A stretch of DNA of 64,000 nucleotides. It comes from Escherichia coli (GTDB taxonomy: Bacteria; Pseudomonadota; Gammaproteobacteria; Enterobacterales; Enterobacteriaceae). Made by a program: the position numbers and the translations under genes. Location: NCBI RefSeq assembly GCF_003018255.1, contig NZ_CP027440.1. One strand, 5' to 3'. Positions 6,199-60,847 of the stretch are shown here, piece after piece (position 1 is the first letter of the stretch; every line of letters starts with the position of its first letter). The notes under the pieces were generated by a model, which saw only the letters and a program-made list of their open reading frames with translations, did no database searches and was not told where the DNA came from.

Positions 6199-7620
6199 TT
6201 AAACAATGTCCAGCGTGCCCAGGCGGTATTTCCGCTGATAGATAAACGAGGTGAGTACAATCGGGATGATGATGGCGATAGCCATTGCCAGCGCAAACAC
6301 CTGCCAGTAGCTCGGTTGAATCGAGAGAATTCCCGGCAGGCCGCCTACGCCGATGCCATTCGCCATAACGCCGTTCAGGCCGCATAGCAATCCTGCCAGA
6401 CCAGAACCAATCATCGCGCACAGCATCGGGAAGCGATATTTCAGGTTGATGCCGTACATAGCAGGCTCAGTGACTCCAAGCCAGGCGGAGATAGCGGCAG
6501 GCACGGAGATCTCGCGTTCATTGTGCTTGCGGCTGGAAATGATAATGCCTATCACGGCGGAACCCTGAGCGATATTCGACAGCGCAATCAGCGGCCACAC
6601 TGGCGTACCACCCATGCTTTGAATCATCTGCAAATCAATAGCAAGCGTGGTCTGATGTACGCCGGTGATCACCAGCGGGGCGTACAGGAAGCCAAACAAT
6701 GCCGCGCCAATCGGAGCAAAGCTGCCGGTCATCAGGTGACGTACCGCAAAGGCAACGCCATCGCCAATCATGCGACCAAACGGACCAATCAGCGCATGGG
6801 CGAGGAACACCGCGAGGATCAGCGAACAAACGGGCACCACCACCAGATAGAGGTAATCCGGCACGATGCGCTTAAGACGAGTTTCAATAACGCCCAGCGC
6901 CAGCCCGGCTAACAGTGCCGGGATCACCTGCGCCTGATAGCCCACTTTGGCGATGCTGAACATGCCAAAGTCCCACACTTCCGGCAGCTGCTGCCCGAGC
7001 AGATAAGCGTTCATCAGCTGTGGAGAAACCAGCGTTACGCCAAGCACGATACCAAGGATCGGCGTGCCGCCCATTTTTTTCACCGCTGACCAGCAAATCC
7101 CGACCGGCAGGTAGAAGAAGATCGCTTCACCGATCAACCACAGAAAATCGTAGATCGTTTGCAGGGAAGGGTACATTTGCGCCAGCGTTTGACCGTTGCT
7201 CATGGGCAAATCGCCGATCACATTGCGAAAACCGAGGATCAAACCGCCGCTAATCAACGCGGGCAGCAACGGGAAGAAAATCTCCGCGAAATGAGAGATC
7301 AACTGCTCATGCCATTTCATATTCTGCCGGGCGGCTTTTTTTACCTGCTCTTTATCAACCTGCGCCTGTCCGGTTGACGCTATCAGTGCTTGATAGTAAT
7401 CACCCACGTTGGTGCCAATCACCACCTGAAATTGCCCGGCATTGGTGAAACAGCCTTTCACCATGGGGAGTTGCTCAATTTCTTTCGGTCTGGCATTGGC
7501 CGGTTGGTTGAGGACAAAGCGCAGACGAGTAATACAGTGGCTCACCGTCGCAATATTGCCGCGCCCGCCGACCAGTTCAATCAACCGATCGATATCCGTT
7601 TGGTTTATTTTGCTCATCAT
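6199..7620 (-). CDS. treB: PTS trehalose-specific EIIBC component
   Basis: 473 aa membrane protein, PTS EIIB cysteine motif region; tre operon synteny. Confidence 0.93.
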   Translation of the reverse strand: MMSKINQTDIDRLIELVGGRGNIATVSHCITRLRFVLNQPANARPKEIEQLPMVKGCFTNAGQFQVVIGTNVGDYYQALIASTGQAQVDKEQVKKAARQNMKWHEQLISHFAEIFFPLLPALISGGLILGFRNVIGDLPMSNGQTLAQMYPSLQTIYDFLWLIGEAIFFYLPVGICWSAVKKMGGTPILGIVLGVTLVSPQLMNAYLLGQQLPEVWDFGMFSIAKVGYQAQVIPALLAGLALGVIETRLKRIVPDYLYLVVVPVCSLILAVFLAHALIGPFGRMIGDGVAFAVRHLMTGSFAPIGAALFGFLYAPLVITGVHQTTLAIDLQMIQSMGGTPVWPLIALSNIAQGSAVIGIIISSRKHNEREISVPAAISAWLGVTEPAMYGINLKYRFPMLCAMIGSGLAGLLCGLNGVMANGIGVGGLPGILSIQPSYWQVFALAMAIAIIIPIVLTSFIYQRKYRLGTLDIV

Positions 7621-32589: not shown

Positions 32590-32674
32590 GCCGAAGTGGC
32601 GAAATCGGTAGACGCAGTTGATTCAAAATCAACCGTAGAAATACGTGCCGGTTCGAGTCCGGCCTTCGGCACCA
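32590..32674 (+). tRNA. leuX: tRNA-Leu (anticodon CAA)
   Basis: 85-nt sequence GCCGAAGTGGCGAAATCGGTAGACGCAGTTGATTCAAAATCAACC...GGTTCGAGTCCGGCCTTCGGCACCA with cloverleaf arms and encoded CCA. Confidence 0.95.
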
Positions 32675-32896: not shown

Positions 32897-34573
32897 ATGG
32901 CACTAACAGATCGCGCTATAGTCCACGCCAAGCCTTGTGGCAAGCCGTATAAGCTCAGTGACTCGCATGGACTTTACCTGCTGGTTAACCCTAACGGTTC
33001 AAAACGCTGGTACATCAAGTACCGCTTTGTAAACAAAGAGAAAAAGCTCGCTTTAGGCCCTTATCCGCTTTTGACGCTTGCACAGGCAAGACGCATGCGT
33101 GAAGAGGCACAATTATTGCTGATTTCCGGCATCGATCCGAGTGCACGCCGAAAAGCAGAACGCCTTGCGATAACGCCGGAACATACGTTTGAGTCTGTGG
33201 CACGTGAATGGGTCACCAGTAACGTGAACTGGTCGGCGGAACATAAGAAGCGGGTGCTGCGTTATTTCGAGCTTTACGTATTCCCCACGAACGGCAGCTG
33301 TGACATCACCAAAATGAAGGTCAAAGATCTGCTGGTGCCCATCAAGGAAGTGGAGAAAGCGGGCAAACTGGATGTTGCTTCCCGGCTTCAGCAGCGCACT
33401 GCCTGCGTGATGCGCTACGCCGTCCAGAACGGCATTATCGATCATAACCCTGCATCAGATTTAACCGGCGCGGTCTCCACGCCCAAAGTACGGCATCACC
33501 CGGCGTTGGATCTGAATCTTATCCCTGATTTCCTGGAAAGAATCGACGATTACAAAGGCCGTCAACTGACTCAACTGGCGGTAAAACTGGCACTGCTGCT
33601 GTTTATCCGCTCCAGCGAACTGCGCTTTGCCCGCTGGGATGAAATTGATCTGCGTAACGCCATGTGGACCATCCCCGCTGAGCGTGAGCCGATCCCCGGC
33701 GTTAAATATTCAGCGCGTGGGGCGAAGATGCACTCCCCACACCTGGTCCCATTGTCACGTCAGGCCATCGAACTGCTGCACGAGGTGCGGCAGCATTGCC
33801 GACCGGGAACTGAACTGGTGTTCCCCGGCGATCACAATTACCGCAAGCCGATGAGTGAAAACACCATCAACAAAGCGCTGCGGGTGATGGGCTACGACAC
33901 CCAGAAAGATGTCTGTGGCCACGGTTTTCGCACTATGGCCTGTAGCGCGCTGGTGGAGTCGGGGCTGTGGTCAAGCGACGCGGTAGAGCGCCAGATGAGC
34001 CATCAGGAGCGCAAGCGCGTGCGTGCGGCGTATATCCACAAGGCGCAGCATCTCGAAGAACGTTGGGAGATGATGCAGTGGTGGGCGGATTATCTGGATG
34101 CAAACCGGTTCAGGCATGTTGTGCCGTATGGCTTCAAAAAGTCGCCGGGAGGCGCACTCGACCATATGAGTTTCCAGGAGCGCAATGACCGGCAGCTAGA
34201 GGAGCTGAAAGCCAGAATACTGGCTGACTCGGAATGGCTGACGGCGTCTGAATTATCCGCAAAAGCGGGCTTTCGTTCCGCCGATCCTGATGCTGGTCCG
34301 AAAGGCTGGAAAGCCGCCGGGAAGATATTCTCGCTGAAGGTCGATGGTGAGGATTTATACCCTGATTATGTTCTGGATGAGAAAATGCGGCCTCTCAAGG
34401 TTGTCCGTTTGATTCTTTCACTGTTTAAGGAGCGTAAAACACCGTGGGGGCTGGCTATCTGGTTTGGCTCGGCTAATCGCAGGTTGAGAGGTGGGAGGCC
34501 GAAAGACCTGCTGATTTCGAAGTCAGAGTTGGTTCTGATGGCGGCGCAGGAGGAGGTGGAGTCGGGGGAGTAG
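32897..34573 (+). CDS. P4-type tyrosine integrase with ~150-aa C-terminal extension
   Basis: 558 aa; N-terminal arm-binding region, catalytic HGFR and Tyr (AAYIH) region at ~aa 350-375; extension ends in a GGRPKDLL-type motif. Confidence 0.85.
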   Translation: MALTDRAIVHAKPCGKPYKLSDSHGLYLLVNPNGSKRWYIKYRFVNKEKKLALGPYPLLTLAQARRMREEAQLLLISGIDPSARRKAERLAITPEHTFESVAREWVTSNVNWSAEHKKRVLRYFELYVFPTNGSCDITKMKVKDLLVPIKEVEKAGKLDVASRLQQRTACVMRYAVQNGIIDHNPASDLTGAVSTPKVRHHPALDLNLIPDFLERIDDYKGRQLTQLAVKLALLLFIRSSELRFARWDEIDLRNAMWTIPAEREPIPGVKYSARGAKMHSPHLVPLSRQAIELLHEVRQHCRPGTELVFPGDHNYRKPMSENTINKALRVMGYDTQKDVCGHGFRTMACSALVESGLWSSDAVERQMSHQERKRVRAAYIHKAQHLEERWEMMQWWADYLDANRFRHVVPYGFKKSPGGALDHMSFQERNDRQLEELKARILADSEWLTASELSAKAGFRSADPDAGPKGWKAAGKIFSLKVDGEDLYPDYVLDEKMRPLKVVRLILSLFKERKTPWGLAIWFGSANRRLRGGRPKDLLISKSELVLMAAQEEVESGE

Positions 34574-34735
34574 GAATGGTTACTCAACCCTGAAAGAATG
34601 CGTCCAACTACTCTTTACCCTTCTTTCTTTAATGGAAAATGACGTTTGGAAGGTTGAATAAGGCATCGCATTTCTGGCGGTCTTTTTTTGATCATTTACG
34701 TTGCTTCTTTCTTTATTTGTTCATAACATTGTTTT

Positions 34736-34752
34736 GTTCATGATTCATGAAC
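34736..34752. promoter_or_regulatory. 17-bp palindrome GTTCATGATTCATGAAC (candidate operator) just upstream of start codon
   Basis: Perfect 8-bp arms around a central base; candidate -35 TTGCTT / -10 TAACAT immediately upstream; TTGTTCA half-sites repeated nearby. Confidence 0.5.
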
Positions 34753-34756
34753 AGTT

Positions 34757-35770
34757 ATGAGGTGTGAACAAATGAAGGAAGAACAGCTTTTGTCTGATGC
34801 GATAGAGAATCTGCCAAAAGGATTCCATTTGCAGTATGAACATAGCGGTAGACATGGTAAGCACGATGCCTGGGGTAAGCTAACAGGGCCGGATGGTGAG
34901 TCAGTGATATTTGCTCTGGAAGTAAAATTTATCCACCGTAAAGAGTCACTGATGGCTGTTCGCGAACAAATGGTTCGCTTTCCTGCGGATTTTCCTGTGC
35001 TGCTGGTGTGTAACCGCCTGACGTCTGCACTGGCGGAATATTGCGCCGACAGCCAGATCAACTTTATCGATACGGCAGGGAATGCCCGTATCCAGGTTCC
35101 AGGCTTGTATGTGCGGATCGAAGGCCGCTATGAAAAGAAACCCGTTTCCGCCAGCAGTCGTTTTGCTGAAGGGGTGATGAAGCTTCTTTTTGTTTTGCTG
35201 TCTAGCCCAGAGACCCTGAACGAGACTTACCGCAGTCTGGCCGGAAAGGCAGGTATCTCTCTGGGAATGGTCAGCAAGGCTTTTGATTATCTCGAAGCGC
35301 AACGCTATTTCCGCAAATCGAAGAAGGGGCGTCGCTTAATCAATGAAGGCGAGTTAGAGGCTTTGTGGCTGAAAGATTATGCTACAGCTTTGCGCCCTAA
35401 GCTGGATTCGCTTTCTTTATCCGCGCCTGTTTCATGGGATGAGTTGACGCTTGCGTCCGGGGAATACTGGAGCGGCGAGATTGCGGCGGCAAAGCTGAGC
35501 GGAGGATACCTGATACCAGAAAATGGCGTGATTTTTACATCCCATCCGTTGTTACAAAGGCGAAAGGAACTGGGACTAAAACCTGTTCCGGGGGGGAAAC
35601 TACAGCTGATCGCCGGTTTTTGGGGGAACTTTGTACTGAATCACAAAGCCGAGGCGATGCTATGCGTGGCTGAACTGCTGGCAAGCGGGGATGACAGAAA
35701 CTGGGAAACAGCAAGGATAATCAATGACAAATATCTTCACCTTAATGAATCCGATCTCTTCAGCTACTGA
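34757..35770 (+). CDS. Hypothetical protein with N-terminal PD-(D/E)xK-like motif and central winged-HTH
   Basis: 337 aa; GPDGESVIFALEVKF (PD...ExK pattern) and ISLGMVSKAFDYLEAQRYF HTH-like segment; alternative ATG at 34772. Confidence 0.6.
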   Translation: MRCEQMKEEQLLSDAIENLPKGFHLQYEHSGRHGKHDAWGKLTGPDGESVIFALEVKFIHRKESLMAVREQMVRFPADFPVLLVCNRLTSALAEYCADSQINFIDTAGNARIQVPGLYVRIEGRYEKKPVSASSRFAEGVMKLLFVLLSSPETLNETYRSLAGKAGISLGMVSKAFDYLEAQRYFRKSKKGRRLINEGELEALWLKDYATALRPKLDSLSLSAPVSWDELTLASGEYWSGEIAAAKLSGGYLIPENGVIFTSHPLLQRRKELGLKPVPGGKLQLIAGFWGNFVLNHKAEAMLCVAELLASGDDRNWETARIINDKYLHLNESDLFSY

Positions 35771-36533
35771 AACGTTACTGAGTCAGATCAACCGTATTTG
35801 CACCGCTCAGGGGATCCCGTTTTTTATTGCAGGTGCAACGGCTCGTGAAATTCTGCTCCATCATATACACAGCAGAAGTATTGGTCGCCGAACCCGTGAT
35901 ATTGATATTGCCGTCTTTGTGGATAGCTGGCCGAGATTTGATGCGCTTAAAAATGCTTTCCTTGCTGAAGGGGCAGAAGTTGTCCAAGGTAATGCCCATC
36001 GTATGATTGTCAAAGGGATCGAGCTAGATATTATTCCTTTTGGTGGTGTTGCTGAAGGAAATCAAATTGCCTGGCCACCAGAACGTGAGATCATAATGGC
36101 TGTGGATGGATTTGCCGAAGTCTTTTCTCATACCGTAGTTGTGCGGCTGGATAACAGCGAAAATATTCCGTTCTGCTCCTTGCCAGGACTGGCTCTGTTA
36201 AAACTTTTTGCATGGCGTGATCGTGGGCATGGGAGTACTAAAGACGCGACCGATCTCTTTAAGATTATCTGTGAATATGGTGTTATCGAGAATGAACGCA
36301 TCTATGAATCGCCCGTCGAAGGGGAACGCCTGAACTGGGATCCCATACGTATGGGCGCTTTTCTGTTGGGAAGCGATATAGCGACAATTAGTGAACACTC
36401 ATCCTTGCAGGATTTACTCCATCTTGATAAAGAACGCCTGATCGATGTGATAGTACGACAACATGACGTGGGTGATGCTGGGATTGAGCAGATCATCAAT
36501 GATTTCTGGGATGGTATGGCAAGTGATGGTTGA
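35724..36533 (+). CDS. Pol-beta-superfamily nucleotidyltransferase (AbiEii/DUF1814-like motif pattern)
   Basis: 269 aa; AGATA...GRRTRDIDIAVFV then DIIPFGG acidic motif; overlaps upstream gene by up to 47 nt. Confidence 0.6.
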   Translation: MTNIFTLMNPISSATETLLSQINRICTAQGIPFFIAGATAREILLHHIHSRSIGRRTRDIDIAVFVDSWPRFDALKNAFLAEGAEVVQGNAHRMIVKGIELDIIPFGGVAEGNQIAWPPEREIIMAVDGFAEVFSHTVVVRLDNSENIPFCSLPGLALLKLFAWRDRGHGSTKDATDLFKIICEYGVIENERIYESPVEGERLNWDPIRMGAFLLGSDIATISEHSSLQDLLHLDKERLIDVIVRQHDVGDAGIEQIINDFWDGMASDG

Positions 36534-36571
36534 GGATGTAGTTTTAGATGAAATGTTCACAACAGAGTTTT

Positions 36572-36588
36572 GTTCATGAATCATGAAC
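36572..36588. promoter_or_regulatory. Second copy of the 17-bp palindrome (GTTCATGAATCATGAAC) within a ~40-bp duplicated block
   Basis: Block agagttttgttcatgaatcatgaacggtattattgtgaacaatgg matches 34730-34774. Confidence 0.45.
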
Positions 36589-36678
36589 GGTATTATTGTG
36601 AACAATGGCAGGGCGTAACGCCAACTGCCCGATTAAGATGCGCTTATGTTATCAATAATGCCAGCCCAGAGTCAGTCG

Positions 36679-36800
36679 CGACATCATCAAACTGAAGGTC
36701 AAAGGCTTGCTGGTTCCCATCAAAGATAGTGGAGAACGCAGGTAAACTTGATGTTCCACCTTCCACGGCGCACCGCACCTTCGGCATGATGCGCTAATAT
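36679..36800 (+). pseudogene. Internal fragment of a P4-type integrase gene (frameshifted)
   Basis: About 75-80 percent nucleotide identity to 33302-33420 of the intact integrase (by-eye alignment); reading frame breaks. Confidence 0.6.
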
Positions 36801-36840
36801 TATGGCTATATAGGTATTGAAAAGATAAAATATTATCACT

Positions 36841-37329
36841 ATGGCTAAAAAAACGGCTCCCTTAGTTCCCGGTACTAATCAGTTGCTTGCTGAGTTTGGC
36901 GAACGGCTTAAGCTGGCGCGACTGCGACGTAAGCTCACAGCGAAGCGGGTTGCTGAGCGAGCCGGGATGTCGCCAATGACCTTGCGTTCTCTTGAATCAG
37001 GCGGGACGGGCGTGACAATCGGCGCTTATTTGTCAGTTATGCAGATTTTGGGTCTTGAAAAGGATCTGAACAAACTTGCCGCTGAGGATGAACAGGGACG
37101 CCAACTTCAGGATTCCCGGCTAATAAATAAAACGCGTGTTTCTCGTCCTGCTGCTATCTCTCACACAAACAGGCATACCGGAAACGTGATAAAAAACGAT
37201 GCCTTCGACAAGCAATTCTCGACATCACAAGAAAAATCAATCGATTCTGAAGTTAAAACAGAAGTCGTGACATCTGCATCTCTTGCTGCACTGCTAAAAC
37301 CAATAAAGAAACCCAGAAAAGGTAGCTGA
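36841..37329 (+). CDS. XRE-family HTH protein
   Basis: 162 aa, N-terminal HTH_3-type segment ([32 protein letters not shown]). Confidence 0.7.
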
Positions 37330-37692: not shown

Positions 37693-37710
37693 TATCCCCT
37701 ATAGGGGATA
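37693..37710. promoter_or_regulatory. 18-bp perfect palindrome TATCCCCTATAGGGGATA matching HipB operator consensus TATCC-N8-GGATA
   Basis: Perfect palindrome 30 bp upstream of the HipB-like ATG; a related TATCC...GGATA site at 37724-37737. Confidence 0.6.
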
Positions 37711-37739
37711 TGCTCAAAATATCTATCCTGGGGGATAAA

Positions 37740-38081
37740 ATGAACGTAACCTCACCCAAAATGTTGTCTCAGGCAATCAGGGATGCACGCAAGCAACGTA
37801 ACCTGACCCAGCGTGAAACTGCAGCAAGTATGGGCATGAAACAGTCAACGGTTTCAGAGTTTGAGAACCATCCTGAGGGGACCAGCCTGGATACGCTCTT
37901 TAAGCTGCTTGCCGCTCTGGACCTTAAGCTTCAGGTCGTAAGCTGGAGGGGTAAAAAAACTCTTCTGATGGCTGGGAGCAGGAGTGGTGATCTGTGGAAA
38001 TATGAACAAAAAGGCCATGGCGCTATCCGGACGGAACCACCATTTTCACTAGCGTACCATCTGGATTTCCAGAGCACATAA
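37740..38081 (+). CDS. HipB-like XRE-family HTH regulator with C-terminal extension
   Basis: MNVTSPKMLSQAIRDARKQRNLTQRETAASMGMKQSTVSEFENHPEGTSLDTLFKLLAALDLKLQVV resembles HipB; operator palindrome upstream. Confidence 0.65.
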   Translation: MNVTSPKMLSQAIRDARKQRNLTQRETAASMGMKQSTVSEFENHPEGTSLDTLFKLLAALDLKLQVVSWRGKKTLLMAGSRSGDLWKYEQKGHGAIRTEPPFSLAYHLDFQST

Positions 38082-54214: not shown

Positions 54215-55762
54215 ATGGAATATTCTATGTCGGATATTGTCGCCGGGAACAGGATTGCTGCTCAATATTTAAGAATGTCTACCGAGCATCAGAAATATTC
54301 GCCGGAGAACCAGCGGGAATATATCGAGAAGTATGCAAAAGAACACTGTATTACCATTAAATATACCTATGACGACGCTGGCCGAAGTGGGCTGAGCCTG
54401 GATAACAGGCCTGGCCTGCGTTCGCTGTTATATGATGTTGAAAACGGAATAATAAAAGTCTCGTTAATTCTTGTTTACGATGTCAGTCGGTTTGGTCGTT
54501 TTCAGGATATTGAAGAGGCTGCTCATTACTCGTGGCTACTGAAGCGTAATGGTGTGCGCATTATTTATTGCGCGGAGCCTTTCTCGGAAGAACAGACCGA
54601 ATTGTTTATGCTGGGATTATCTTACTCCCGCTATGGCGCCGCAACTTACAGTAAAAACCTTTCACAAAAAGTTTTTCTTGGCCAGGCAAACCTCGTTCGG
54701 CGGGGTTATTATCAAGGTGGTATGCCTGGCTATGGCATTCGGAGATTATTAATTGATGAACATACTAATCCGAAAGGCATGCTTCTGCCGGGGCAAAGGA
54801 AAAGCCTGCAAACTGACAGAGTAATATTGATCCCGGGGCCCGCGGAAGAGGTGGTAATAGTCAATAAAATCTATGACATGTTTATTGATGAGGGCAAGCC
54901 TGAGTTTGTTATTGCTTCAGAACTGAACCGGAAGAACATCCCCGCCGAGAATGGGCTCCAGTGGAGCCGATGTAAAATTCATCAGATACTGACCAATGAA
55001 AAATATATTGGCAATAATGTTTATAACAGAACCTCCGGACGATTGAAGACCCGAAGTGTCAGGAATCCTCAGGATCAGTGGATCAGATGTGACGGCGCGT
55101 GGGACCCTGTGGTATCAGTAGAGAAATTTGAGGCGGCTAAAAGGATTATTGAAGCCAGGGCCGTTCAGTACAGTGATGATGAACTGCTGGATAAACTACG
55201 CCATCTGCTGAAGCTTCGTGGCAGATTATCCGGGATTGTGATTGATGAAGAGGAACTGTTTCCATCGAGCAGCATTTTTCGTTCACGGTTTGGTGGGTTA
55301 GTCAGGGCTTACACCCTTATTGGTTATCACCCGCGCCATGATTACTCTTATCTTGAAATAAAAAAGCAGATTGCAGAATGCCATCTCACTTTCATGGATA
55401 ATTTGGTGCAGGATATATACCGATATGGCGGTTGGGCAGAGATGCATCAGGATGGTTCATTATATATTAATGATGAGTTTTTTGTTTCCGCTAATCTGGT
55501 TCGCTGCCAACGTTTGTCGTCAGGTAAGCTTCGTTGGAAGATAAAATTTAATGTATCCCATTATTGTGATGTCATGATCTTTCCACGGTTGGATAGCACA
55601 AATAACTCCGTGGTTGATTACTTTATGTTTCCGGCTATTGATGTGTTGTATAACGATTTAACGCTTCATGAGAACAATGGTTTTATCCTCGAACTATATC
55701 GATTTGATGATTTGTCATGTCTGGAAAATCTTGTAAAACGAACTGGTCTGGAGAGTAAATAA
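54215..55762 (+). CDS. Large serine recombinase
   Basis: 515 aa; N-terminal resolvase catalytic motif YLRMSTEHQ; starts 11 nt after adhesin stop. Confidence 0.8.
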   Translation: MEYSMSDIVAGNRIAAQYLRMSTEHQKYSPENQREYIEKYAKEHCITIKYTYDDAGRSGLSLDNRPGLRSLLYDVENGIIKVSLILVYDVSRFGRFQDIEEAAHYSWLLKRNGVRIIYCAEPFSEEQTELFMLGLSYSRYGAATYSKNLSQKVFLGQANLVRRGYYQGGMPGYGIRRLLIDEHTNPKGMLLPGQRKSLQTDRVILIPGPAEEVVIVNKIYDMFIDEGKPEFVIASELNRKNIPAENGLQWSRCKIHQILTNEKYIGNNVYNRTSGRLKTRSVRNPQDQWIRCDGAWDPVVSVEKFEAAKRIIEARAVQYSDDELLDKLRHLLKLRGRLSGIVIDEEELFPSSSIFRSRFGGLVRAYTLIGYHPRHDYSYLEIKKQIAECHLTFMDNLVQDIYRYGGWAEMHQDGSLYINDEFFVSANLVRCQRLSSGKLRWKIKFNVSHYCDVMIFPRLDSTNNSVVDYFMFPAIDVLYNDLTLHENNGFILELYRFDDLSCLENLVKRTGLESK

Positions 55763-56649
55763 TGAAATCTTTTGATGAACAGATAGAACTTGTCGATATC
55801 AGTGATATTTATATCGCAAATCCACGGAAAAGGAATAAATTCATTCATAATGAAATAAAAGAGAACATAAAAACCATTGGTCTGAAACGGCCTGTTAGCG
55901 TGCGCCCAGTGAATAATGAAAACTATAAATATGCCCTGATTTGTGGTCAGGGACGACTTGAAGCGTATATTGAGTATGGTGAAACGAAAATTCCTGCAAT
56001 CATCAAGCAGGTTGATGAAGAGACAGCGCACCTGATGAGCCTGGCTGAAAACATCGCAAGACGTAATCCCCGGGCGGCAGAGCTAATGGAAGATATCAGA
56101 AGAATGAAGACCAGTGGCCTGACCGATCGTGAAATAGGCTTGCGGCTTGGGTATAATTCGAGTTGGGTAAATGGGGTGATCACTCTGTTGTCATCCGGAG
56201 AGAAGCATCTTTTGCGGGCATTTGAGACTGGCGATATTCCCTTGTATCTTGCTGTGGAAATATCCCGGTCAGGAGATGAGGAAACTCAGGAACTGCTGAC
56301 GGTCGCCCTGAAAGAAGGACATATCAAGGGTGGGCAAATTAATAAGATCAGGCGCATACTTGAACAACGTAAGAAAGGCGATAAAGGTACGATTAGTACG
56401 GCTTTTTTTCCTGGGAAAAAACAGAAAAAACTGACCCCGGAAGAACTGGCTAATGTCTACCAGGAAAACATTAATGAGCAAAAAGCCATTCTGCTGAAAT
56501 CCACAATGGTTAAAGAGAAAATTCTGGCAGTAAAGCAAATATTTGGTTATTTACTTAAAGATAATGATTTTGTTACATTGCTGCACAGTAATAATATCCA
56601 CGATATTCCTTCTTTACTGGATGGCAGTGATGTATCGGGGGAGAAATAA
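55762..56649 (+). CDS. ParB-like protein (ParB/Srx N-domain plus HTH)
   Basis: PVSVRPV...ICGQGRLEA...IPAIIK...ENIARRN pattern resembles ParB boxes; TAATG overlap with recombinase. Confidence 0.7.
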   Translation: MKSFDEQIELVDISDIYIANPRKRNKFIHNEIKENIKTIGLKRPVSVRPVNNENYKYALICGQGRLEAYIEYGETKIPAIIKQVDEETAHLMSLAENIARRNPRAAELMEDIRRMKTSGLTDREIGLRLGYNSSWVNGVITLLSSGEKHLLRAFETGDIPLYLAVEISRSGDEETQELLTVALKEGHIKGGQINKIRRILEQRKKGDKGTISTAFFPGKKQKKLTPEELANVYQENINEQKAILLKSTMVKEKILAVKQIFGYLLKDNDFVTLLHSNNIHDIPSLLDGSDVSGEK

Positions 56650-56650
56650 G

Positions 56651-57541
56651 ATGATTTCACAATGTTTTGACTCCCGATTTTATACCTTTAAGGTGGAATC
56701 ACTGGTGTATGCCAGAACGCTGCCGGTTAATGTTAAATTCAGTACGAAGTACAAACAAATTAAAGCCTCTGTCGATGAAATTGGGTTAATTGAACCCATT
56801 GTGGTTTATATCAATGACGCCAATGATAAAGTCATTCTGGATGGACATCTTCGCGTTGAAGTTTTGAAAGAACTCGGAATAACTACTGCTCATTGTCTGA
56901 TATCCCCTGTGGAGGATACATATTCATATAACAAACGTGTTAGTCGCCTTACCATTGTGCAGGCCCAAAACATGCTGCTTAAAGCGGTTGAATCTGGCGT
57001 TTCAGTTGAAAAACTATGCGCCGTACTGGGTGTCACGCCAGATACGCTGATTGGTAAACTGAAAATTTCTGATGGCATTGCCCCTGAAGTCATGGCGTTA
57101 CTGGCAGAAAAAAATGTACCGCAGACCATTTTCTCTGTGTTGAAAAAACTAAAGTTCTATAAGCAGATAGAAATGGTTAACACCATGATCAGTATTAATA
57201 ATTTCACCCGCAAATTTGCGATGTCGATGCTGCATGCCGTTGCCCCTGAACATCTTGTAGCGCCTAAAAAAGATGCCAGCAGAGAAACAGATATCAGAAA
57301 AAATCTCGAAAGACTGGAAAAAGAAATGGCTTCCGTTCAGGTGGAAACGCAGCATCTTCAGGATGAATATGCTGAGAATAACCTTCGGCTGGTTATCATT
57401 AAAAATCACATTGAACGTCTGCTGGCGAACGGTCAGGTACTTAACTGGCTTTATGATAACCATCAGGAGTACCTTTCTGTGCTCAAGCAAATCTCGGGGC
57501 TGGATGATTTGAATAAGCTTGGCCAGACAATTGAGGAATGA
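56651..57541 (+). CDS. ParB-like protein, second paralogue
   Basis: Start ATG 56651 with GGGGGAG RBS, 1 nt after previous stop; VILDGHLRVEVLKELG ParB/Srx-like motif. Confidence 0.6.
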   Translation: MISQCFDSRFYTFKVESLVYARTLPVNVKFSTKYKQIKASVDEIGLIEPIVVYINDANDKVILDGHLRVEVLKELGITTAHCLISPVEDTYSYNKRVSRLTIVQAQNMLLKAVESGVSVEKLCAVLGVTPDTLIGKLKISDGIAPEVMALLAEKNVPQTIFSVLKKLKFYKQIEMVNTMISINNFTRKFAMSMLHAVAPEHLVAPKKDASRETDIRKNLERLEKEMASVQVETQHLQDEYAENNLRLVIIKNHIERLLANGQVLNWLYDNHQEYLSVLKQISGLDDLNKLGQTIEE

Positions 57542-57740
57542 CACATTTTTAAAGCAAGGACTGCTGTTTTACAGATTGCCACTATGATGGGATGCACTGA
57601 GAGAGGAGGGCGTGCTGGTGGTTGACGTGATTCAACTGGTGCGGAAAATCTTGCTCAAAGGACGATGGCTTAAAATCAAGTTGCTGTTTCAAAAATGAAA
57701 AAGTAGATTTACATCCACTTTTCTTACTGAGGTAAAAATA

Positions 57741-58199
57741 GTGCATATAGATGCGGATTTCATAAGCTTGAGCACATTGGTGGCTAATCAACAAGCTGCA
57801 AAATGGGCGGGGGTTGCTGCTATTGCTGCCTGTTTGACGTTTGTTGTGACAACGATAGGTTTACTACTTGCTTGGCGGTCGTTGCATCAGTGGAAGCCTC
57901 AATACAAAGAAAACTCTAGACTTCTCCTAATCGAAGCTTTAATCGCATTTCAGAAATGTTTAATAACTATACCAAAAAATCTCGATAACGATCCCACCTA
58001 TCAAAGCCGAAAGGAATTTTTGAAGGCAAGTACTGAAGTTGAGCTAAGAGGACAAATATATCTTAAGCAACACAGCAACGAAAAATTAAAAGATGAATTA
58101 GCAAATCTCAGGAGTAAATGTGCAGAATTTGTTGGTGGTAAGGTGACTAAACCTGAACTGTCATTCATCTCAGCAATAATATTACTCATTGAAGTATAA
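57741..58199 (+). CDS. Hypothetical small membrane protein (152 aa, GTG start)
   Basis: AT-rich ORF with one predicted TM helix (AAIAACLTFVVTTIGLLLAW). Confidence 0.4.
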   Translation: MHIDADFISLSTLVANQQAAKWAGVAAIAACLTFVVTTIGLLLAWRSLHQWKPQYKENSRLLLIEALIAFQKCLITIPKNLDNDPTYQSRKEFLKASTEVELRGQIYLKQHSNEKLKDELANLRSKCAEFVGGKVTKPELSFISAIILLIEV

Positions 58200-58301
58200 T
58201 AGATTCTGGGCTAACACCAATCGGTTACCCGGTTGGGATATCGCTTCCGGGTAACCTGTGGAAAGGCAAAAGCCACTCCACAGGTTGCCCGAGCATATCG
58301 A

Positions 58302-59093
58302 TTACATGTTTGCGTCTTTATTTAACGCATATTGCCAGTTAGCTGCATCCAGCTTTCTCAGCAACGCGCAAAGCACATCCACCAGACAGGCGAGGATCCG
58401 CTGGCCTTTTTCCGCCGTGGCGCAGCGCGGATCGCCGGTTGCTCCGGTGGCGCTGATTTCCCCGATATCCCAGATCCGGTTCACGCCATAATCAGCGAAC
58501 ACCTCCACCGGGATCTGTTTCTGCGCATATTTCAGTTCCACCAGCTCCGGAATCAGCGCCATCATGACGGACGTTTCGCCCTCGCCGCCGTGTCCTAGTC
58601 CGGTGTTATCCCATGAGTCGAAAAATCCCTTCCCGAGATGATGTCCCACCAGATCCCACCACGCCGGAACCACGACAATCGCTGCCTGCGTATGTCGGGC
58701 CTTCACATTGCGGGCGGCGATTTCAATCGCCGGAATATTACCGTCATGGCCGTTAATCACCAGGATCCGGCGAATACCGTGGTGCAGCAGGCTGATGAAG
58801 ATATCTTCCGCCAGCGCGATATTGGTCTCGTAGCGTAGGGTGACCGCCAGTGGATAGGCATTGTAGTGAACGGATGTGCCGAACGGCGTGCAGGGCAGCA
58901 CAAGGGTATTATCCACCCGCTGCGCCACCCGGCAGGCGACGATTTCGGGTACAAACATATCGGGGCCGAGTGGCAGGTGATCGGCGTGGTTCTCACAACT
59001 GCCGAAGTTGACGATAGCAGTGAGTTCCTTACCAGACTGCAACAGCTCGCGGATTTCCCGGCCAGTCAGTTCATTGAGCATGACTTTTTTCAT
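58302..59093 (-). CDS. Creatininase (creatinine amidohydrolase) family protein
   Basis: Product recognised as creatininase-fold family; start MKKVMLNELTG; overlaps permease stop. Confidence 0.65.
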   Translation of the reverse strand: MKKVMLNELTGREIRELLQSGKELTAIVNFGSCENHADHLPLGPDMFVPEIVACRVAQRVDNTLVLPCTPFGTSVHYNAYPLAVTLRYETNIALAEDIFISLLHHGIRRILVINGHDGNIPAIEIAARNVKARHTQAAIVVVPAWWDLVGHHLGKGFFDSWDNTGLGHGGEGETSVMMALIPELVELKYAQKQIPVEVFADYGVNRIWDIGEISATGATGDPRCATAEKGQRILACLVDVLCALLRKLDAANWQYALNKDANM

Positions 59094-60429
59094 CGGACAG
59101 CCTCCTGTTTTTTCGGACGACAAAGATGTAGTACGCGCTGGCGAGGGCCAGCCAGATCAGGACGGTAACCAGGGTAATGCCGCCGCCGTCGGTGAAAAAT
59201 TGCCCGGCCATGATCAGCGCAATCAGCCCCACGGTGAGTGGCTGGATGTAGCGGGCGGCCGGAGCCTTGTATTTCAGCGTTCCGTCGTGCAGGGCTATTC
59301 GGTGCAGGGTGGGCTGGCTTAAGGCAATCATCAGCCAGGTGAACAGAAAGCCGAATCCGGAAATCCCGGCGAGGATGACATACGCATCTGGCGAGAGAAT
59401 GGCGATGATGACGCCGGTAAACAGCACCAGGCTGCTGGCAAGAATGGCGTTATCCGGTGTTTTATGTGCCGGGTGCAGGCGGGCAAACCAGGCCGGGAAA
59501 TAGCCGTCAGACGCCATGGCGTGCAGCATCCGCGAGGTGGCGTAAACCCCGGTATCGATGCAGGAGAGCGCGGCGGTCAGCACCACAAAGTTCATGATAT
59601 GCCGCGCCATATGGCCACCGAGAATGCCGGAAGCTTCGACATACGGGCTGCTGCTGACACCTGCCTGCTGCCAGGGGAGAACGAGCAGCAGAACGGTCAA
59701 TGAGCCGACATACAGCAACAGGATCCGCACCACGGTGCCACGCAGCGTACGAGGAATATCACGCTGTGGGTTCTCGCTTTCACCCGCGGCGGTGCCGATG
59801 GCCTCTGTCCCGCCGAAAGAGAAAATCACCATTAACATCGCGCCGAGAAATCCGGGCAGCCCGCCAGCAAAAAAGCTGCCGCTGTCGGTCGGATGACTGA
59901 TGCTGGCGGGTGAGGCGTTATCCAGTCCCAGGCTGTAGCAGCCCGCGACGATAAAGGCCAGCAGCGCCACGACTTTCACCAGGCTCAGCCAGAACTCCAC
60001 TTCACCGAAAAAATGAACGCCGACCATGTTGATGGCAGTCAGCGACGAAGCGATCACCAGGCAAAACAGCCAGACGGGGACTCCGGGAAACCACAGGTTC
60101 AGGAAGGTGCCTGCAGCGATGGCCTCCGACGCCGGGCCAATCAGGAAGGCCAGCCAGTAGGTCCACCCGGTGATAAAGCCACACCATGGGCCAAAGGCGG
60201 TGCGGGCATAGGATTCAAAGGAACCGGAGACGGGCCTGGCGACCGCCATTTCGGCAAGCAACAGCATAATGAACAGGGTGATGACACCGCCGATAAGGTA
60301 GGCCAGCACCACCGACGGCCCGGTACGGGCAATGGCCGCGCCTGCGCCGAGGAAAAATCCGGCACCAATCACGCCTCCCACGGAAATCATCGTCAGGTGA
60401 CGGGCTTTCAGACTTCTGTTGAGTTCCAT
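59071..60429 (-). CDS. APC-family amino acid permease
   Basis: 452 aa multi-TM protein, start MELNRSLKARHLTMISVGGVIGAGFF. Confidence 0.8.
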   Translation of the reverse strand: MELNRSLKARHLTMISVGGVIGAGFFLGAGAAIARTGPSVVLAYLIGGVITLFIMLLLAEMAVARPVSGSFESYARTAFGPWCGFITGWTYWLAFLIGPASEAIAAGTFLNLWFPGVPVWLFCLVIASSLTAINMVGVHFFGEVEFWLSLVKVVALLAFIVAGCYSLGLDNASPASISHPTDSGSFFAGGLPGFLGAMLMVIFSFGGTEAIGTAAGESENPQRDIPRTLRGTVVRILLLYVGSLTVLLLVLPWQQAGVSSSPYVEASGILGGHMARHIMNFVVLTAALSCIDTGVYATSRMLHAMASDGYFPAWFARLHPAHKTPDNAILASSLVLFTGVIIAILSPDAYVILAGISGFGFLFTWLMIALSQPTLHRIALHDGTLKYKAPAARYIQPLTVGLIALIMAGQFFTDGGGITLVTVLIWLALASAYYIFVVRKNRRLSDEKSHAQ

Positions 60430-60472
60430 AATGTCTTCTCTTTTGTTGTTGTGGATGGATTCAAGGCAGCGC

Positions 60473-60847
60473 TTATGGCCGTCCCTCCTCAATCAGCAGT
60501 TCACCGTACAGGTCGTGAAGTTTAGGGATTGGGCCGGAGAGATGAACGGCTCCCGAATGGCAGGCATTCAGGCTGCCGTTAAACACCATGGTCAGGTGGC
60601 CAAGTTCAAACAAAGACTGCTGTGCCTCTTTACCCACGGCGGTCACCAGGTAGTCATGGCTCGCCAGCAGCAGCCGATCGCCGGGCAGGATCAGCAGGTC
60701 GTCTTCGCGGAATGAGGGTTCCAGCGACAGGGAATAGTCCAGGCAGTCTTTCGGTCCGTTGCTGTCAAAGGTGATAAGCGTCCTGTCTGCCAGTCCGTCG
60801 GCGACAAACAGCCCGATAGCAACGATGCGTGCGCAGTAGGTCATCAT
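60473..60847 (-). CDS. Hypothetical protein (124 aa), first gene of permease/creatininase operon
   Basis: ORF immediately upstream of permease on same strand. Confidence 0.4.
   Translation of the reverse strand: MMTYCARIVAIGLFVADGLADRTLITFDSNGPKDCLDYSLSLEPSFREDDLLILPGDRLLLASHDYLVTAVGKEAQQSLFELGHLTMVFNGSLNACHSGAVHLSGPIPKLHDLYGELLIEEGRP

What the first reader, a model, noticed from the sequence alone, without database searches (positions are those of the whole stretch)
32897..34573. P4-type integrase with ~150-aa C-terminal extension resembling an Xre/MbcA/ParS-type antitoxin domain
The catalytic region (HGFR ... AAYIH ... WWADYLD) ends near residue 405, where P4-family integrases normally stop. 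The ORF continues for ~150 aa, containing an HTH-like stretch (LTASELSAKAGF) and ending in WFGSANRRLRGGRPKDLLISKSELVLMAAQEEVESGE. That tail matches the pattern of the DUF2384 toxin-binding domain of Xre-type antitoxins. This could be a true fusion, or a lost stop codon merging the integrase with a downstream regulator gene.
Basis: partly seen in the sequence, partly recalled or inferred. Interest (0 to 1): 0.5.

Follow-up and report, generated by a model that had tools for sequence, protein, structure and literature searches.

The report
ICE integrase fused to antitoxin module
The integrase that inserts a conjugative element next to the leuX tRNA gene carries, as a conserved and selected part of the same protein, a complete copy of the kind of small antitoxin that normally neutralises RES toxins, although no such toxin is present here, so the module has probably been recruited for a new, still unknown job.

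Summary
Window 32897-34573 (+) is one 558-aa ORF, 222 bp after tRNA-Leu(CAA). Residues 1-415 are a complete P4-type tyrosine integrase. Residues 416-558 are an extra tail.

It is not a lost stop codon or a sequencing error. Integrases of 557-564 aa with the same in-frame junction occur in Escherichia, Klebsiella, Citrobacter, Enterobacter, Salmonella and Edwardsiella, and as a 3'-truncated 512-aa form in Pectobacterium. The tail is under purifying selection (dN/dS 0.05-0.11, against 0.02-0.045 for the integrase core).

The antitoxin reading is supported, but only indirectly:
- Pfam finds nothing in the tail itself.
- The closest free-standing homologues (53-60% identity, about 230 aa) sit directly upstream of a RES toxin gene in 5 of 5 loci examined.

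The tail equals a whole minimal antitoxin: a winged helix plus a DUF2384-like domain on a disordered linker. The element is a PFGI-1/ICEclc-class ICE. No RES gene was found in the window or in the identical ICE of strain JNE23-011. The terminal His-Gly of the free-standing family (117 of 149) is kept in only 2 of 84 fused proteins.

I infer that an antitoxin-RES cassette was captured, the toxin was later replaced, and the module was kept for an integrase-linked role. That role is untested.

The parts
32590..32674 (+). tRNA-Leu(CAA) gene (leuX), the integration target; left boundary of the ICE
   Evidence: ARAGORN. PGAP annotation of the 99.98%-identical strain JNE23-011.
32897..34573 (+). Whole fused ORF, 558 aa plus stop: ICE integrase with antitoxin-derived tail
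   Evidence: ORF list. Full-length homologues of 557-564 aa in several genera.
32903..33160 (+). Arm-type DNA-binding domain (aa 3-88)
   Evidence: Pfam PF13356, E 4e-24.
33188..33472 (+). Core-binding domain (aa 98-192)
   Evidence: Pfam PF22022, E 7e-24.
33557..34141 (+). Catalytic domain to the normal integrase end (aa 221-415). Candidate catalytic residues, assigned by inspection of motifs: R238, H342, R345, H368, Y379.
   Evidence: Pfam PF00589 covers aa 221-384. NCBIfam PRK09692 extends to aa 405. Tail-less homologues stop 1-3 residues after VVPYGF. Motif positions.
34136..34141 (+). Fusion junction (codons AAA AAG, K414-K415). Nucleotide homology to the short-integrase ICE variant ends here.
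   Evidence: Position-by-position identity with L029 collapses at about 34137. Junction codons compared across alleles.
34142..34171 (+). Disordered linker (aa 416-425). The low-confidence stretch of the full-length model, aa 353-424, also takes in the poorly modelled end of the catalytic domain.
   Evidence: pLDDT below 50 in both AlphaFold models.
34172..34228 (+). Long leading helix of the module (aa 426-444). Homology to free-standing antitoxins begins here (ERNDRQLEELKARILAD).
   Evidence: Alignments A1 and A2. DSSP on the models.
34235..34363 (+). Winged helix-turn-helix (aa 447-489): strand, helix, loop, helix, two-strand wing
34388..34564 (+). DUF2384-like (Xre/MbcA/ParS C-terminal type) helical domain (aa 498-556)
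34565..34756 (.). Boundary between conserved ICE sequence and variable cargo. Homology among ICE variants ends within about 10 nt of the stop codon. An AT-rich spacer (35.5% GC) follows.
   Evidence: Identity profiles against L008, L019, L021 and L024, and GC values.
34757..36533 (+). First cargo genes here: AbiEi antitoxin (34757-35770) and AbiEii toxin (35724-36533). This is the position a RES gene would occupy in a free-standing operon.
   Evidence: ORFs. PGAP names in JNE23-011.

Best explanation
This is the integrase of a roughly 61-kb PFGI-1/ICEclc-class integrative conjugative element inserted at leuX. It is a genuine, conserved two-part protein.

Residues 1-415 are a complete P4-type tyrosine integrase. 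A disordered linker of about 10-20 residues then tethers an independently folding 130-aa module. The module is a leading helix, a winged helix-turn-helix and a DUF2384-like helical domain. That is the full architecture of a minimal RES-toxin antitoxin of the Xre/MbcA/ParS kind.

Inferred history. An antitoxin-RES cassette sat in the cargo hotspot directly downstream of int. An in-frame deletion joined int to the conserved half of the antitoxin gene. The overlapping RES gene was later replaced by other cargo, which clipped the antitoxin's last codons.

Inferred present function. The module no longer serves mainly as a RES inhibitor. It has been retained as an accessory domain of the integrase. 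It most plausibly acts as a tethered DNA-binding or protein-docking regulatory domain that affects recombination or int expression. This functional step is inference only.
For: Shown:
- The ORF and the integrase domains are present.
- The element is an ICE: MobH relaxase, TraD, TIGR037xx/PFL_ genes and PilL2. The window is 99.98% identical to that annotated strain.
- The fusion is conserved at 80-99% identity in several genera, in more than 80 clusters.
- The junction is in frame in all intact alleles inspected.
- The tail is under purifying selection: omega 0.05-0.11, against 0.02-0.045 for the core. This holds among six alleles that carry five different downstream cargo sets.
- GC content of the tail (54.5%) equals that of the core (54.9%).
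- The tail folds confidently and independently: pLDDT 84-92 for aa 430-558, linker below 50, whole-chain pTM 0.33.
- AFDB50 neighbours are annotated DUF2384, Xre/MbcA/ParS or TIGR02293 antitoxin, and some are only 135-149 aa long.
- Free-standing homologues at 53-60% identity are followed by a RES gene in 5 of 5 loci.
- A profile search finds 1429 clusters at E <= 1e-10. Only one integrase-fused representative is among the best 150 listed, which suggests a single fusion lineage.

For loss of the toxin role:
- No RES was found in the window, in the ICE annotation, or in the 14 hypothetical and HTH-annotated ICE proteins scanned with Pfam.
- 117 of 149 free-standing representatives end in His-Gly. 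Only 2 of 84 fused proteins do, and the rest show more than 20 different endings.
- Homology between ICE variants breaks exactly at the stop codon, where a toxin gene would overlap.
Against: - No experiment or direct computation here shows what the tail does.
- The Pfam DUF2384 HMM does not detect the tail.
- Profile searches against PDB sequences found none of the solved antitoxins.
- The ICE has its own AlpA-like excisionase/regulator, so a built-in directionality factor is not obviously needed.
- Deleting the antitoxin's promoter region would have removed any ancestral operator, so a DNA target for the winged helix would have to be new.
- Lineages exist in which the tail is cut off by a frameshift at the junction (P0140) or is absent (P0138). 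The integrase may therefore work without it.
- Strong conservation of the DUF2384-like domain is also what a still-active antitoxin would show.
- One large K. pneumoniae lineage does have a RES-domain gene as the first gene after the fused int.
Confidence: 0.55

Rival explanations
1. The tail is still a working antitoxin. It binds and neutralises RES-family NAD+-degrading toxins, either one encoded next to it (as in the K. pneumoniae variant) or toxins of other elements in trans. It would then act as an anti-addiction or immunity function, or tie cell survival to continued production of the ICE integrase.
For: - The tail has the complete minimal-antitoxin architecture and the DUF2384-type fold.
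- It is 53-60% identical to proteins paired with a RES gene.
- It is under strong purifying selection.
- In the K. pneumoniae cluster P0096 (814 member sequences) a 264-aa RES-domain ORF (Pfam RES, E 1.2e-8) lies 420 bp after the fused int, with no antitoxin ORF between them.
- The one lineage whose tail is frameshifted away has no RES downstream.
- Related antitoxin genes occur on E. coli and Salmonella plasmids.
Against: - No RES gene was found in this window or in the identical ICE of strain JNE23-011.
- Selection on the tail is equally strong in alleles followed by AbiE, Fic, DndB/HipA or unknown cargo.
- The near-invariant terminal His-Gly of the free-standing family is lost in 82 of 84 fused proteins.
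- The K. pneumoniae RES has 38.6% GC against 55% for the tail. It is only marginally similar to a RES paired with a free-standing homologue (E 0.012).
- Its plasmid relatives are also solitary long RES proteins with no neighbouring antitoxin, so the adjacency may be coincidental.
Confidence: 0.25
2. The tail is a functionless relic of a deletion that happened to stay in frame and is simply carried along with the integrase.
For: - There is no cognate toxin, and no function has been demonstrated.
- Variants without the tail exist.
- The extreme C-terminus is variable.
Against: - dN/dS is 0.04-0.11, with synonymous divergence up to saturation (dS > 1.4 against the L033 allele), and the reading frame is intact across genera.
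- The tail is the most confidently folded part of the full-length model.
Confidence: 0.08
3. It is an artefact or a strain-specific pseudogene: a lost stop codon, an assembly error, or, as PGAP annotates in strain JNE23-011, an incomplete integrase 'missing C-terminus'.
For: PGAP annotates only codons 1-416 and flags the gene as a pseudogene in the 100%-identical genome. It flags the 92.6% allele as frameshifted.
Against: - The same 558-aa product is a normal annotated protein in many NCBI records from other genera.
- The frameshift in the 92.6% allele lies at codon ~106, not at the junction.
- The catalytic domain is complete relative to tail-less homologues.
- The junction sequence is identical in independent assemblies.
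Confidence: 0.02

Closest known systems
Xre/MbcA/ParS/NatR antitoxins of RES and ParT toxins (Pfam PF09722 DUF2384; TIGR02293)
   Same: - AFDB neighbours carry these names.
- The closest free-standing homologues precede RES genes.
- The size of the module equals a minimal antitoxin.
   Different: - It is fused to the C-terminus of a 415-aa integrase.
- There is no toxin gene next to it or elsewhere in the ICE.
- The Pfam HMM does not detect it.
- The conserved terminal His-Gly is lost.
- The DNA-binding part is a winged helix of the Rv2175c type rather than a Cro/C1-type HTH.
Rv2175c of Mycobacterium tuberculosis (PDB 2kfs)
   Different: Sequence identity is 14%. Rv2175c is a free-standing protein from a different phylum, with no link to recombinases.
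IntB13 of ICEclc (Pseudomonas knackmussii B13)
   Same: It is a P4-family integrase of an ICE of the same broad ICEclc/PFGI-1 class, noted for 'unusual long length' (review PMC5812530). It is likewise encoded at the tRNA-proximal end with variable genes downstream (PMC10732049).
   Different: From my own knowledge IntB13 is 657 aa and targets tRNA-Gly. No protein of about 650 aa is among the best 150 hits of the tail profile.
Ordinary P4-type integrases of genomic islands (414-424 aa), often with a separate AlpA/Xis gene
   Same: They share 61-86% identity over residues 1-415, the same three Pfam domains, and integration at a tRNA gene. A neighbouring island in K. pneumoniae shows the usual int plus AlpA arrangement.
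   Different: Those proteins stop 1-4 residues after VVPYGF/VVPYEF. Here 143 further residues follow.
Orphan antitoxins as anti-addiction modules (a concept from chromosomal ccd systems; my own knowledge)
   Same: An antitoxin-type domain is maintained without a linked toxin.
   Different: Here it is covalently part of a recombinase, and no target toxin has been identified.

Membership tests
P4-type tyrosine integrase | N-terminal arm-type DNA-binding domain (DUF4102/Arm-DNA-bind_3) | tested here: met
   PF13356, aa 3-88, E 4e-24.
P4-type tyrosine integrase | Core-binding and catalytic domains with the R..HxxR..H..Y signature | tested here: met
   PF22022 and PF00589. R238, H342-R345, H368 and Y379 were located by inspection. 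NCBIfam PRK09692 covers aa 3-405, though at 213.7 bits it is below the 434-bit cut-off.
P4-type tyrosine integrase | Encoded next to the 3' end of a tRNA gene at the edge of a mobile element | tested here: met
   leuX lies 222 bp upstream. ICE genes lie downstream.
P4-type tyrosine integrase | Catalyses integration and excision | not testable with these tools
   Needs excision or integration assays.
Xre/MbcA/ParS (DUF2384) antitoxin | Match to the Pfam PF09722 / NCBIfam Xre_ParS_antitoxin models at their thresholds | tested here: not met
   The tail gives no hit even at E <= 10. Homologues give only weak hits: best 1e-3 for Pfam and 0.008 for NF049845.
Xre/MbcA/ParS (DUF2384) antitoxin | Fold of the toxin-binding domain as in solved antitoxins | tested here: met
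   [not shown]
Xre/MbcA/ParS (DUF2384) antitoxin | Encoded directly upstream of, or overlapping, a RES or ParT toxin gene | tested here: not met
   The next genes are AbiEi/AbiEii. No RES was found in the window or the ICE. The feature is met for free-standing homologues in 5 of 5 loci.
Xre/MbcA/ParS (DUF2384) antitoxin | Neutralises its toxin and autoregulates its operon | not testable with these tools
   Needs co-expression, binding and reporter assays.
IntB13-like long ICE integrases | P4-type core plus a long C-terminal extension, encoded on an ICEclc/PFGI-1-class ICE | tested here: met
   The review statement on IntB13 length is in PMC5812530.
IntB13-like long ICE integrases | Extension homologous to that of IntB13 | not tested
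   The IntB13 sequence was not obtainable here. The original paper (PMC107606) is not held.
Rv2175c-like winged-helix regulators | HTH_17-type winged helix plus helical C-domain | tested here: inconclusive
   [not shown]

The most novel reading that the evidence does not exclude
The integrase tail is a live antitoxin. The ICE would then run a toxin-antitoxin circuit whose antitoxin is the integrase itself. In the K. pneumoniae variant the solitary RES-domain gene just downstream of int would be held in check by Int. Loss of the ICE, or shut-off or turnover of Int, would then release an NAD+-destroying toxin. In toxin-less variants such as this E. coli ICE, the tail would give immunity to related RES modules on plasmids or other islands. 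This would be a direct physical coupling of site-specific recombination to post-segregational killing.
Probability: 0.12. Interest if true: 0.8.

Novelty: new variant of a known kind. Interest (0 to 1): 0.55.

Why it matters
Integrases of conjugative elements decide when resistance- and virulence-carrying islands enter and leave chromosomes. This family is common in clinically important Enterobacterales; one K. pneumoniae protein cluster alone has 814 member sequences.

Databases label the protein simply 'integrase'. They give no domain for its last 143 residues. PGAP sometimes calls the gene a pseudogene. Free-standing RES antitoxins have been mis-named 'integrase' through this fusion.

Recognising the tail as a captured antitoxin module does three things:
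- It corrects those annotations.
- It gives a concrete example of a toxin-antitoxin part being recruited into a recombinase.
- It suggests simple experiments on whether integrase activity or ICE stability is tied to toxin-antitoxin biology: tail deletion, toxin rescue and DNA binding.

Tried and rejected
- **Pfam and NCBIfam on the tail alone.** No hit.
- **Lost stop codon or sequencing error.** Rejected.
- **A RES gene elsewhere in the window or ICE.** tblastn with the Mixta RES was negative. The later tblastn with both the K. pneumoniae and Mixta RES proteins against the window and all loci held at that point gave no hit in the window or in L002, L006 or L007. PGAP annotation has none. A Pfam scan of 14 ICE proteins (hypothetical and HTH-annotated) found none.
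- **The K. pneumoniae RES as the ancestral partner of the tail.** Unlikely. Its GC is 38.6% against 55%. It is only marginally similar to a RES paired with a free-standing homologue. Its relatives are solitary RES proteins. It is absent from complete E. coli genomes.
- **A conserved internal start that would make a separate tail protein.** Met423 is not conserved in divergent alleles.
- **Programmed frameshifting at the junction AAA AAG.** The divergent allele L033 has AAG AAA, so no conserved slippery site. The A-run does act as a mutational hotspot.
- **The tail as a built-in excisionase replacing a missing one.** Weakened, because the ICE has its own AlpA-like gene.
- **Homology of the tail to the IntB13 extension.** Could not be tested.
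- **ICEKp2 as the same element.** No; it sits at tRNA-Phe with different integrases.
- **Genome-collection scan.** It returned only 6 loci because of its exact-peptide patterns.
- **Literature searches for an integrase-antitoxin fusion.** Nothing relevant. One paper used the DUF2384 HMM as one of its 'excisionase' profiles.
Full report
**Observation.** The window has a single 558-aa ORF at 32897-34573 on the + strand. It starts 222 bp after a tRNA-Leu(CAA) gene at 32590-32674. Pfam places an arm-type DNA-binding domain (aa 3-88), a core-binding domain (98-192) and a tyrosine-recombinase catalytic domain (221-384), and nothing after that. NCBIfam PRK09692 covers aa 3-405.

**Where the integrase ends.** The closest integrases that lack the tail are 414-417 aa long and 68-86% identical (alignment A5). 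They stop one to four residues after VVPYGF/VVPYEF. The integrase proper therefore ends at about residue 415, and the extension is about 143 residues.

**Is the fusion real?** Yes.
- A protein search returned more than 80 clusters (at 90% identity) of 540-564 aa covering the whole query at 80-99% identity. They come from Escherichia, Klebsiella, Citrobacter, Enterobacter, Salmonella and Edwardsiella. A 3'-truncated 512-aa relative occurs in Pectobacterium. Some clusters are very populous, such as 814 and 541 member sequences.
- In complete E. coli genomes the gene occurs in 58 of 5426. Two are identical to the window and 42 carry a 92.6%-identical allele.
- That allele has a 1-bp deletion, but at codon ~106 in the N-terminal part. 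Its junction and tail remain in frame.
- The junction codons are the same in independent assemblies from different genera.
- PGAP annotates only codons 1-416 in the identical strain and calls the gene 'incomplete, missing C-terminus'. Other NCBI records carry the 558-aa product as a normal protein, so this looks like an annotation artefact.

**Selection.** I compared six intact alleles that are followed by five different sets of downstream genes. The integrase core has dN/dS 0.02-0.045. The tail has 0.04-0.11 in the 13 of 15 pairs that could be estimated. This includes comparisons in which synonymous sites are saturated (first estimate). The tail has the same GC content as the core (54.5% against 54.9%), whereas the DNA after the stop codon drops to 35%. 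The tail is therefore a selected, long-resident part of the gene.

**What the tail is.**
- Sequence models are nearly blind to it. There is no Pfam or NCBIfam hit and no PDB sequence hit with family profiles.
- Its homologues are informative. Apart from fragments of the fused gene, the tail matches free-standing proteins of about 230 aa from Yersinia, Mixta, Pantoea and Klebsiella at 53-60% identity. One is named 'MbcA/ParS/Xre antitoxin family protein'. Homology begins at residue ~426 of the integrase and covers the C-terminal ~135 residues of those proteins.
- In all five loci of free-standing homologues that I inspected, the next gene is a RES-domain toxin gene, often overlapping. The loci are Mixta, Enterobacter sp. 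Ag1, two further contigs and a Sphingobium plasmid.
- Ten of 13 sequences of alignment A1, mostly free-standing homologues, give weak PF09722 hits.
- An AlphaFold model of the tail (pLDDT 77.5; 84-92 for aa 430-558 with a deeper alignment) shows a long helix, a winged helix-turn-helix and a four-helix domain.
- Foldseek against AFDB50 gives 602 hits at E <= 1e-3. After the fused family itself, these are proteins annotated DUF2384, 'Antitoxin Xre/MbcA/ParS-like toxin-binding domain' or TIGR02293 antitoxin. Some are only 135-149 aa long.

The tail therefore corresponds to an entire minimal antitoxin. The full-length model has a low-confidence linker (aa 403-424) and pTM 0.33, consistent with a flexibly tethered independent domain.

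**How unusual the architecture is.** A profile of the module finds 2677 clusters (50% identity level) at E <= 1e-3 and 1429 at E <= 1e-10. Among the best 150, nearly all are 124-300-aa proteins with the module at their C-terminus behind variable N-terminal regions. Only one representative is an integrase fusion. One longer member has an FHA domain. The fusion thus looks like a single lineage within a large antitoxin family.

**Context.**
- Window 32580-64000 is 99.98% identical to E. coli JNE23-011.
- The annotation of that strain shows a roughly 61-kb ICE of the PFGI-1/ICEclc/SPI-7 class. It has a MobH relaxase, ArdC, TraD, a conjugative ATPase, many TIGR037xx/PFL_ ICE proteins, PilL2 and ParB. 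It lies between leuX and the nan/fim genes.
- No RES protein is annotated in it. A tblastn with a RES query is negative. Fourteen hypothetical or HTH-annotated ICE proteins show no RES domain.
- The DNA right after int is a cargo hotspot for defence and toxin-antitoxin genes. It holds AbiEi/AbiEii here; Fic in the 92.6% E. coli allele and in L024-L026; DndB plus HipA; a Gabija-like OLD/UvrD pair; unknown genes; and, in the large K. pneumoniae cluster, a RES-domain ORF followed by AbiGi and AbiEii genes.
- Nucleotide homology among these ICE variants runs to within about 10 nt of the int stop codon and then vanishes. In a variant with a short integrase it vanishes at the fusion junction instead.

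**History (inferred).** In free-standing operons the RES gene begins inside or immediately after the last codons of the antitoxin gene. Of 149 free-standing representatives, 117 end in His-Gly, as do 24 of 25 close homologues. Only 2 of 84 fused integrases do, and the others show more than 20 different endings. The simplest reading has three steps:
1. An antitoxin-RES cassette once lay immediately downstream of int.
2. An in-frame deletion fused int to the conserved half of the antitoxin gene.
3. The RES gene was later replaced by other cargo through recombination at its start, which clipped the antitoxin's last codons.

**Function (inferred).** The following observations favour recruitment of the module as an accessory domain of the integrase over a continuing role as a RES inhibitor:
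- selection on the tail is maintained whatever the downstream cargo;
- there is no RES gene in this ICE;
- the otherwise near-invariant C-terminal dipeptide is lost;
- the best structural match is a DNA-binding regulator that is not part of a toxin-antitoxin pair.

The accessory role could be a tethered winged-helix DNA binder or a docking domain that influences recombination or int expression. I put this at about 0.45-0.55.

Several points count against it:
- the ICE has its own AlpA-like excisionase/regulator;
- no DNA target is known;
- variants without the tail exist.

**The main rival.** The module may still neutralise RES toxins. I give this about 0.25. In K. pneumoniae a 264-aa RES-domain ORF (Pfam E 1.2e-8) follows the fused int by 420 bp with no antitoxin ORF between them. 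The one lineage with a frameshifted tail lacks it. However, that RES has 38.6% GC and is barely similar to a RES paired with a free-standing homologue. It also belongs to a group of solitary long RES proteins. A functionless relic is unlikely given the selection data.

**Comparison with known systems.**
- The N-terminal 415 residues meet the tested features of a P4-type integrase.
- The tail works like, and derives from, the Xre/MbcA/ParS antitoxin family. It fails two defining tests for membership as an antitoxin: HMM detection and an adjacent toxin. I therefore call it antitoxin-derived rather than an antitoxin.
- ICEclc's IntB13 is the known precedent for an unusually long P4-type ICE integrase (PMC5812530). 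Whether the two extensions are related could not be tested.
- I found no paper describing an integrase-antitoxin fusion. One study used the DUF2384 HMM among its profiles for excisionases (PMC8138268).

**Verdict.** It is a new variant of known kinds: a common but unrecognised ICE integrase architecture that carries a captured, selected antitoxin module whose present function is unknown. Interest is moderate (0.55).

Noticed in passing
window 34574-37329 and loci L001, L008, L012, L019, L021, L024, L033: The DNA immediately after the int stop codon is a hypervariable hotspot for defence and toxin-antitoxin cargo (AbiEi/AbiEii, Fic, RES+AbiGi/AbiEii, DndB+HipA, OLD/UvrD Gabija-like, DUF6088+AbiEii). 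Homology between ICE variants ends within about 10 nt of the stop codon.
   Followed up: partly
L008 8099-8893 (K. pneumoniae; also L009-L011): A solitary 264-aa RES-domain ORF (GC 38.6%) lies 420 bp after the fused integrase with no antitoxin ORF between them. Its distant plasmid relatives (Polaromonas, Cupriavidus) are also solitary long RES proteins.
   Followed up: partly
L035-L039 (K. pneumoniae, protein P0140), equivalent to window 34133-34145: A 1-nt deletion in the A-run at the fusion junction (TTCAAAAAGTCG to TTTAAAAGCAGC) truncates the integrase at 423 aa. The tail remains out of frame but is still 89.7% identical. The junction A5G run is thus a mutational hotspot. It is not conserved as a slippery site in the divergent allele L033.
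   Followed up: yes
L001 6300-6345 (42 E. coli genomes) and L016 about 7170-7240 (Kosakonia): Two independent frameshifts hit the same short region (about codon 105, between the arm and core-binding domains) of the fused integrase in different genera. These ICE copies are probably immobilised.
   Followed up: partly
L013 10940-11225 (Atlantibacter subterranea): A degenerate second copy of the tail's coding sequence lies 2.4 kb downstream of the intact fused integrase, after an HTH gene and a HipA-like gene. It may be a remnant of tandem accretion or of cargo exchange by recombination within the tail.
   Followed up: no
database records: Many free-standing RES-partner proteins of about 230 aa are named 'integrase' in NCBI and UniProt. 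This is apparently annotation transfer from the fused protein. Conversely, PGAP flags the intact fused gene as an incomplete pseudogene in strain JNE23-011.
   Followed up: partly
free-standing homologues (P0162-P0310, P0011-P0035): 79% of diverse free-standing members of this antitoxin family end exactly in His-Gly, and about 87% have His as the penultimate residue. This points to a functional role for the extreme C-terminus that, as far as I know, has not been described for this subfamily.
   Followed up: partly
NZ_AP045067.1 475191-475385 (outside the window; same ICE): The ICE encodes a 63-aa AlpA-like excisionase/regulator (phrog_2790, E 1e-9) next to a ParB-family gene, far from int.
   Followed up: partly
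window about 54400-60500 (from L006 15822-23182 and 14864-15454): The ICE cargo includes a chaperone-usher fimbrial operon with its own tyrosine-type DNA invertase and a serine recombinase. In JNE23-011 the ICE topoisomerase III gene has an internal stop (L006 45306-47111, beyond the window end).
   Followed up: no
window 36841-37329 and 37710-38081: Two Xre-type HTH genes follow the AbiE pair. A homologue of the first is followed by a HipA-like kinase gene in Atlantibacter (L013 8818-10575), whereas no HipA gene follows it here. It may be an orphan HipB-like regulator.
   Followed up: no
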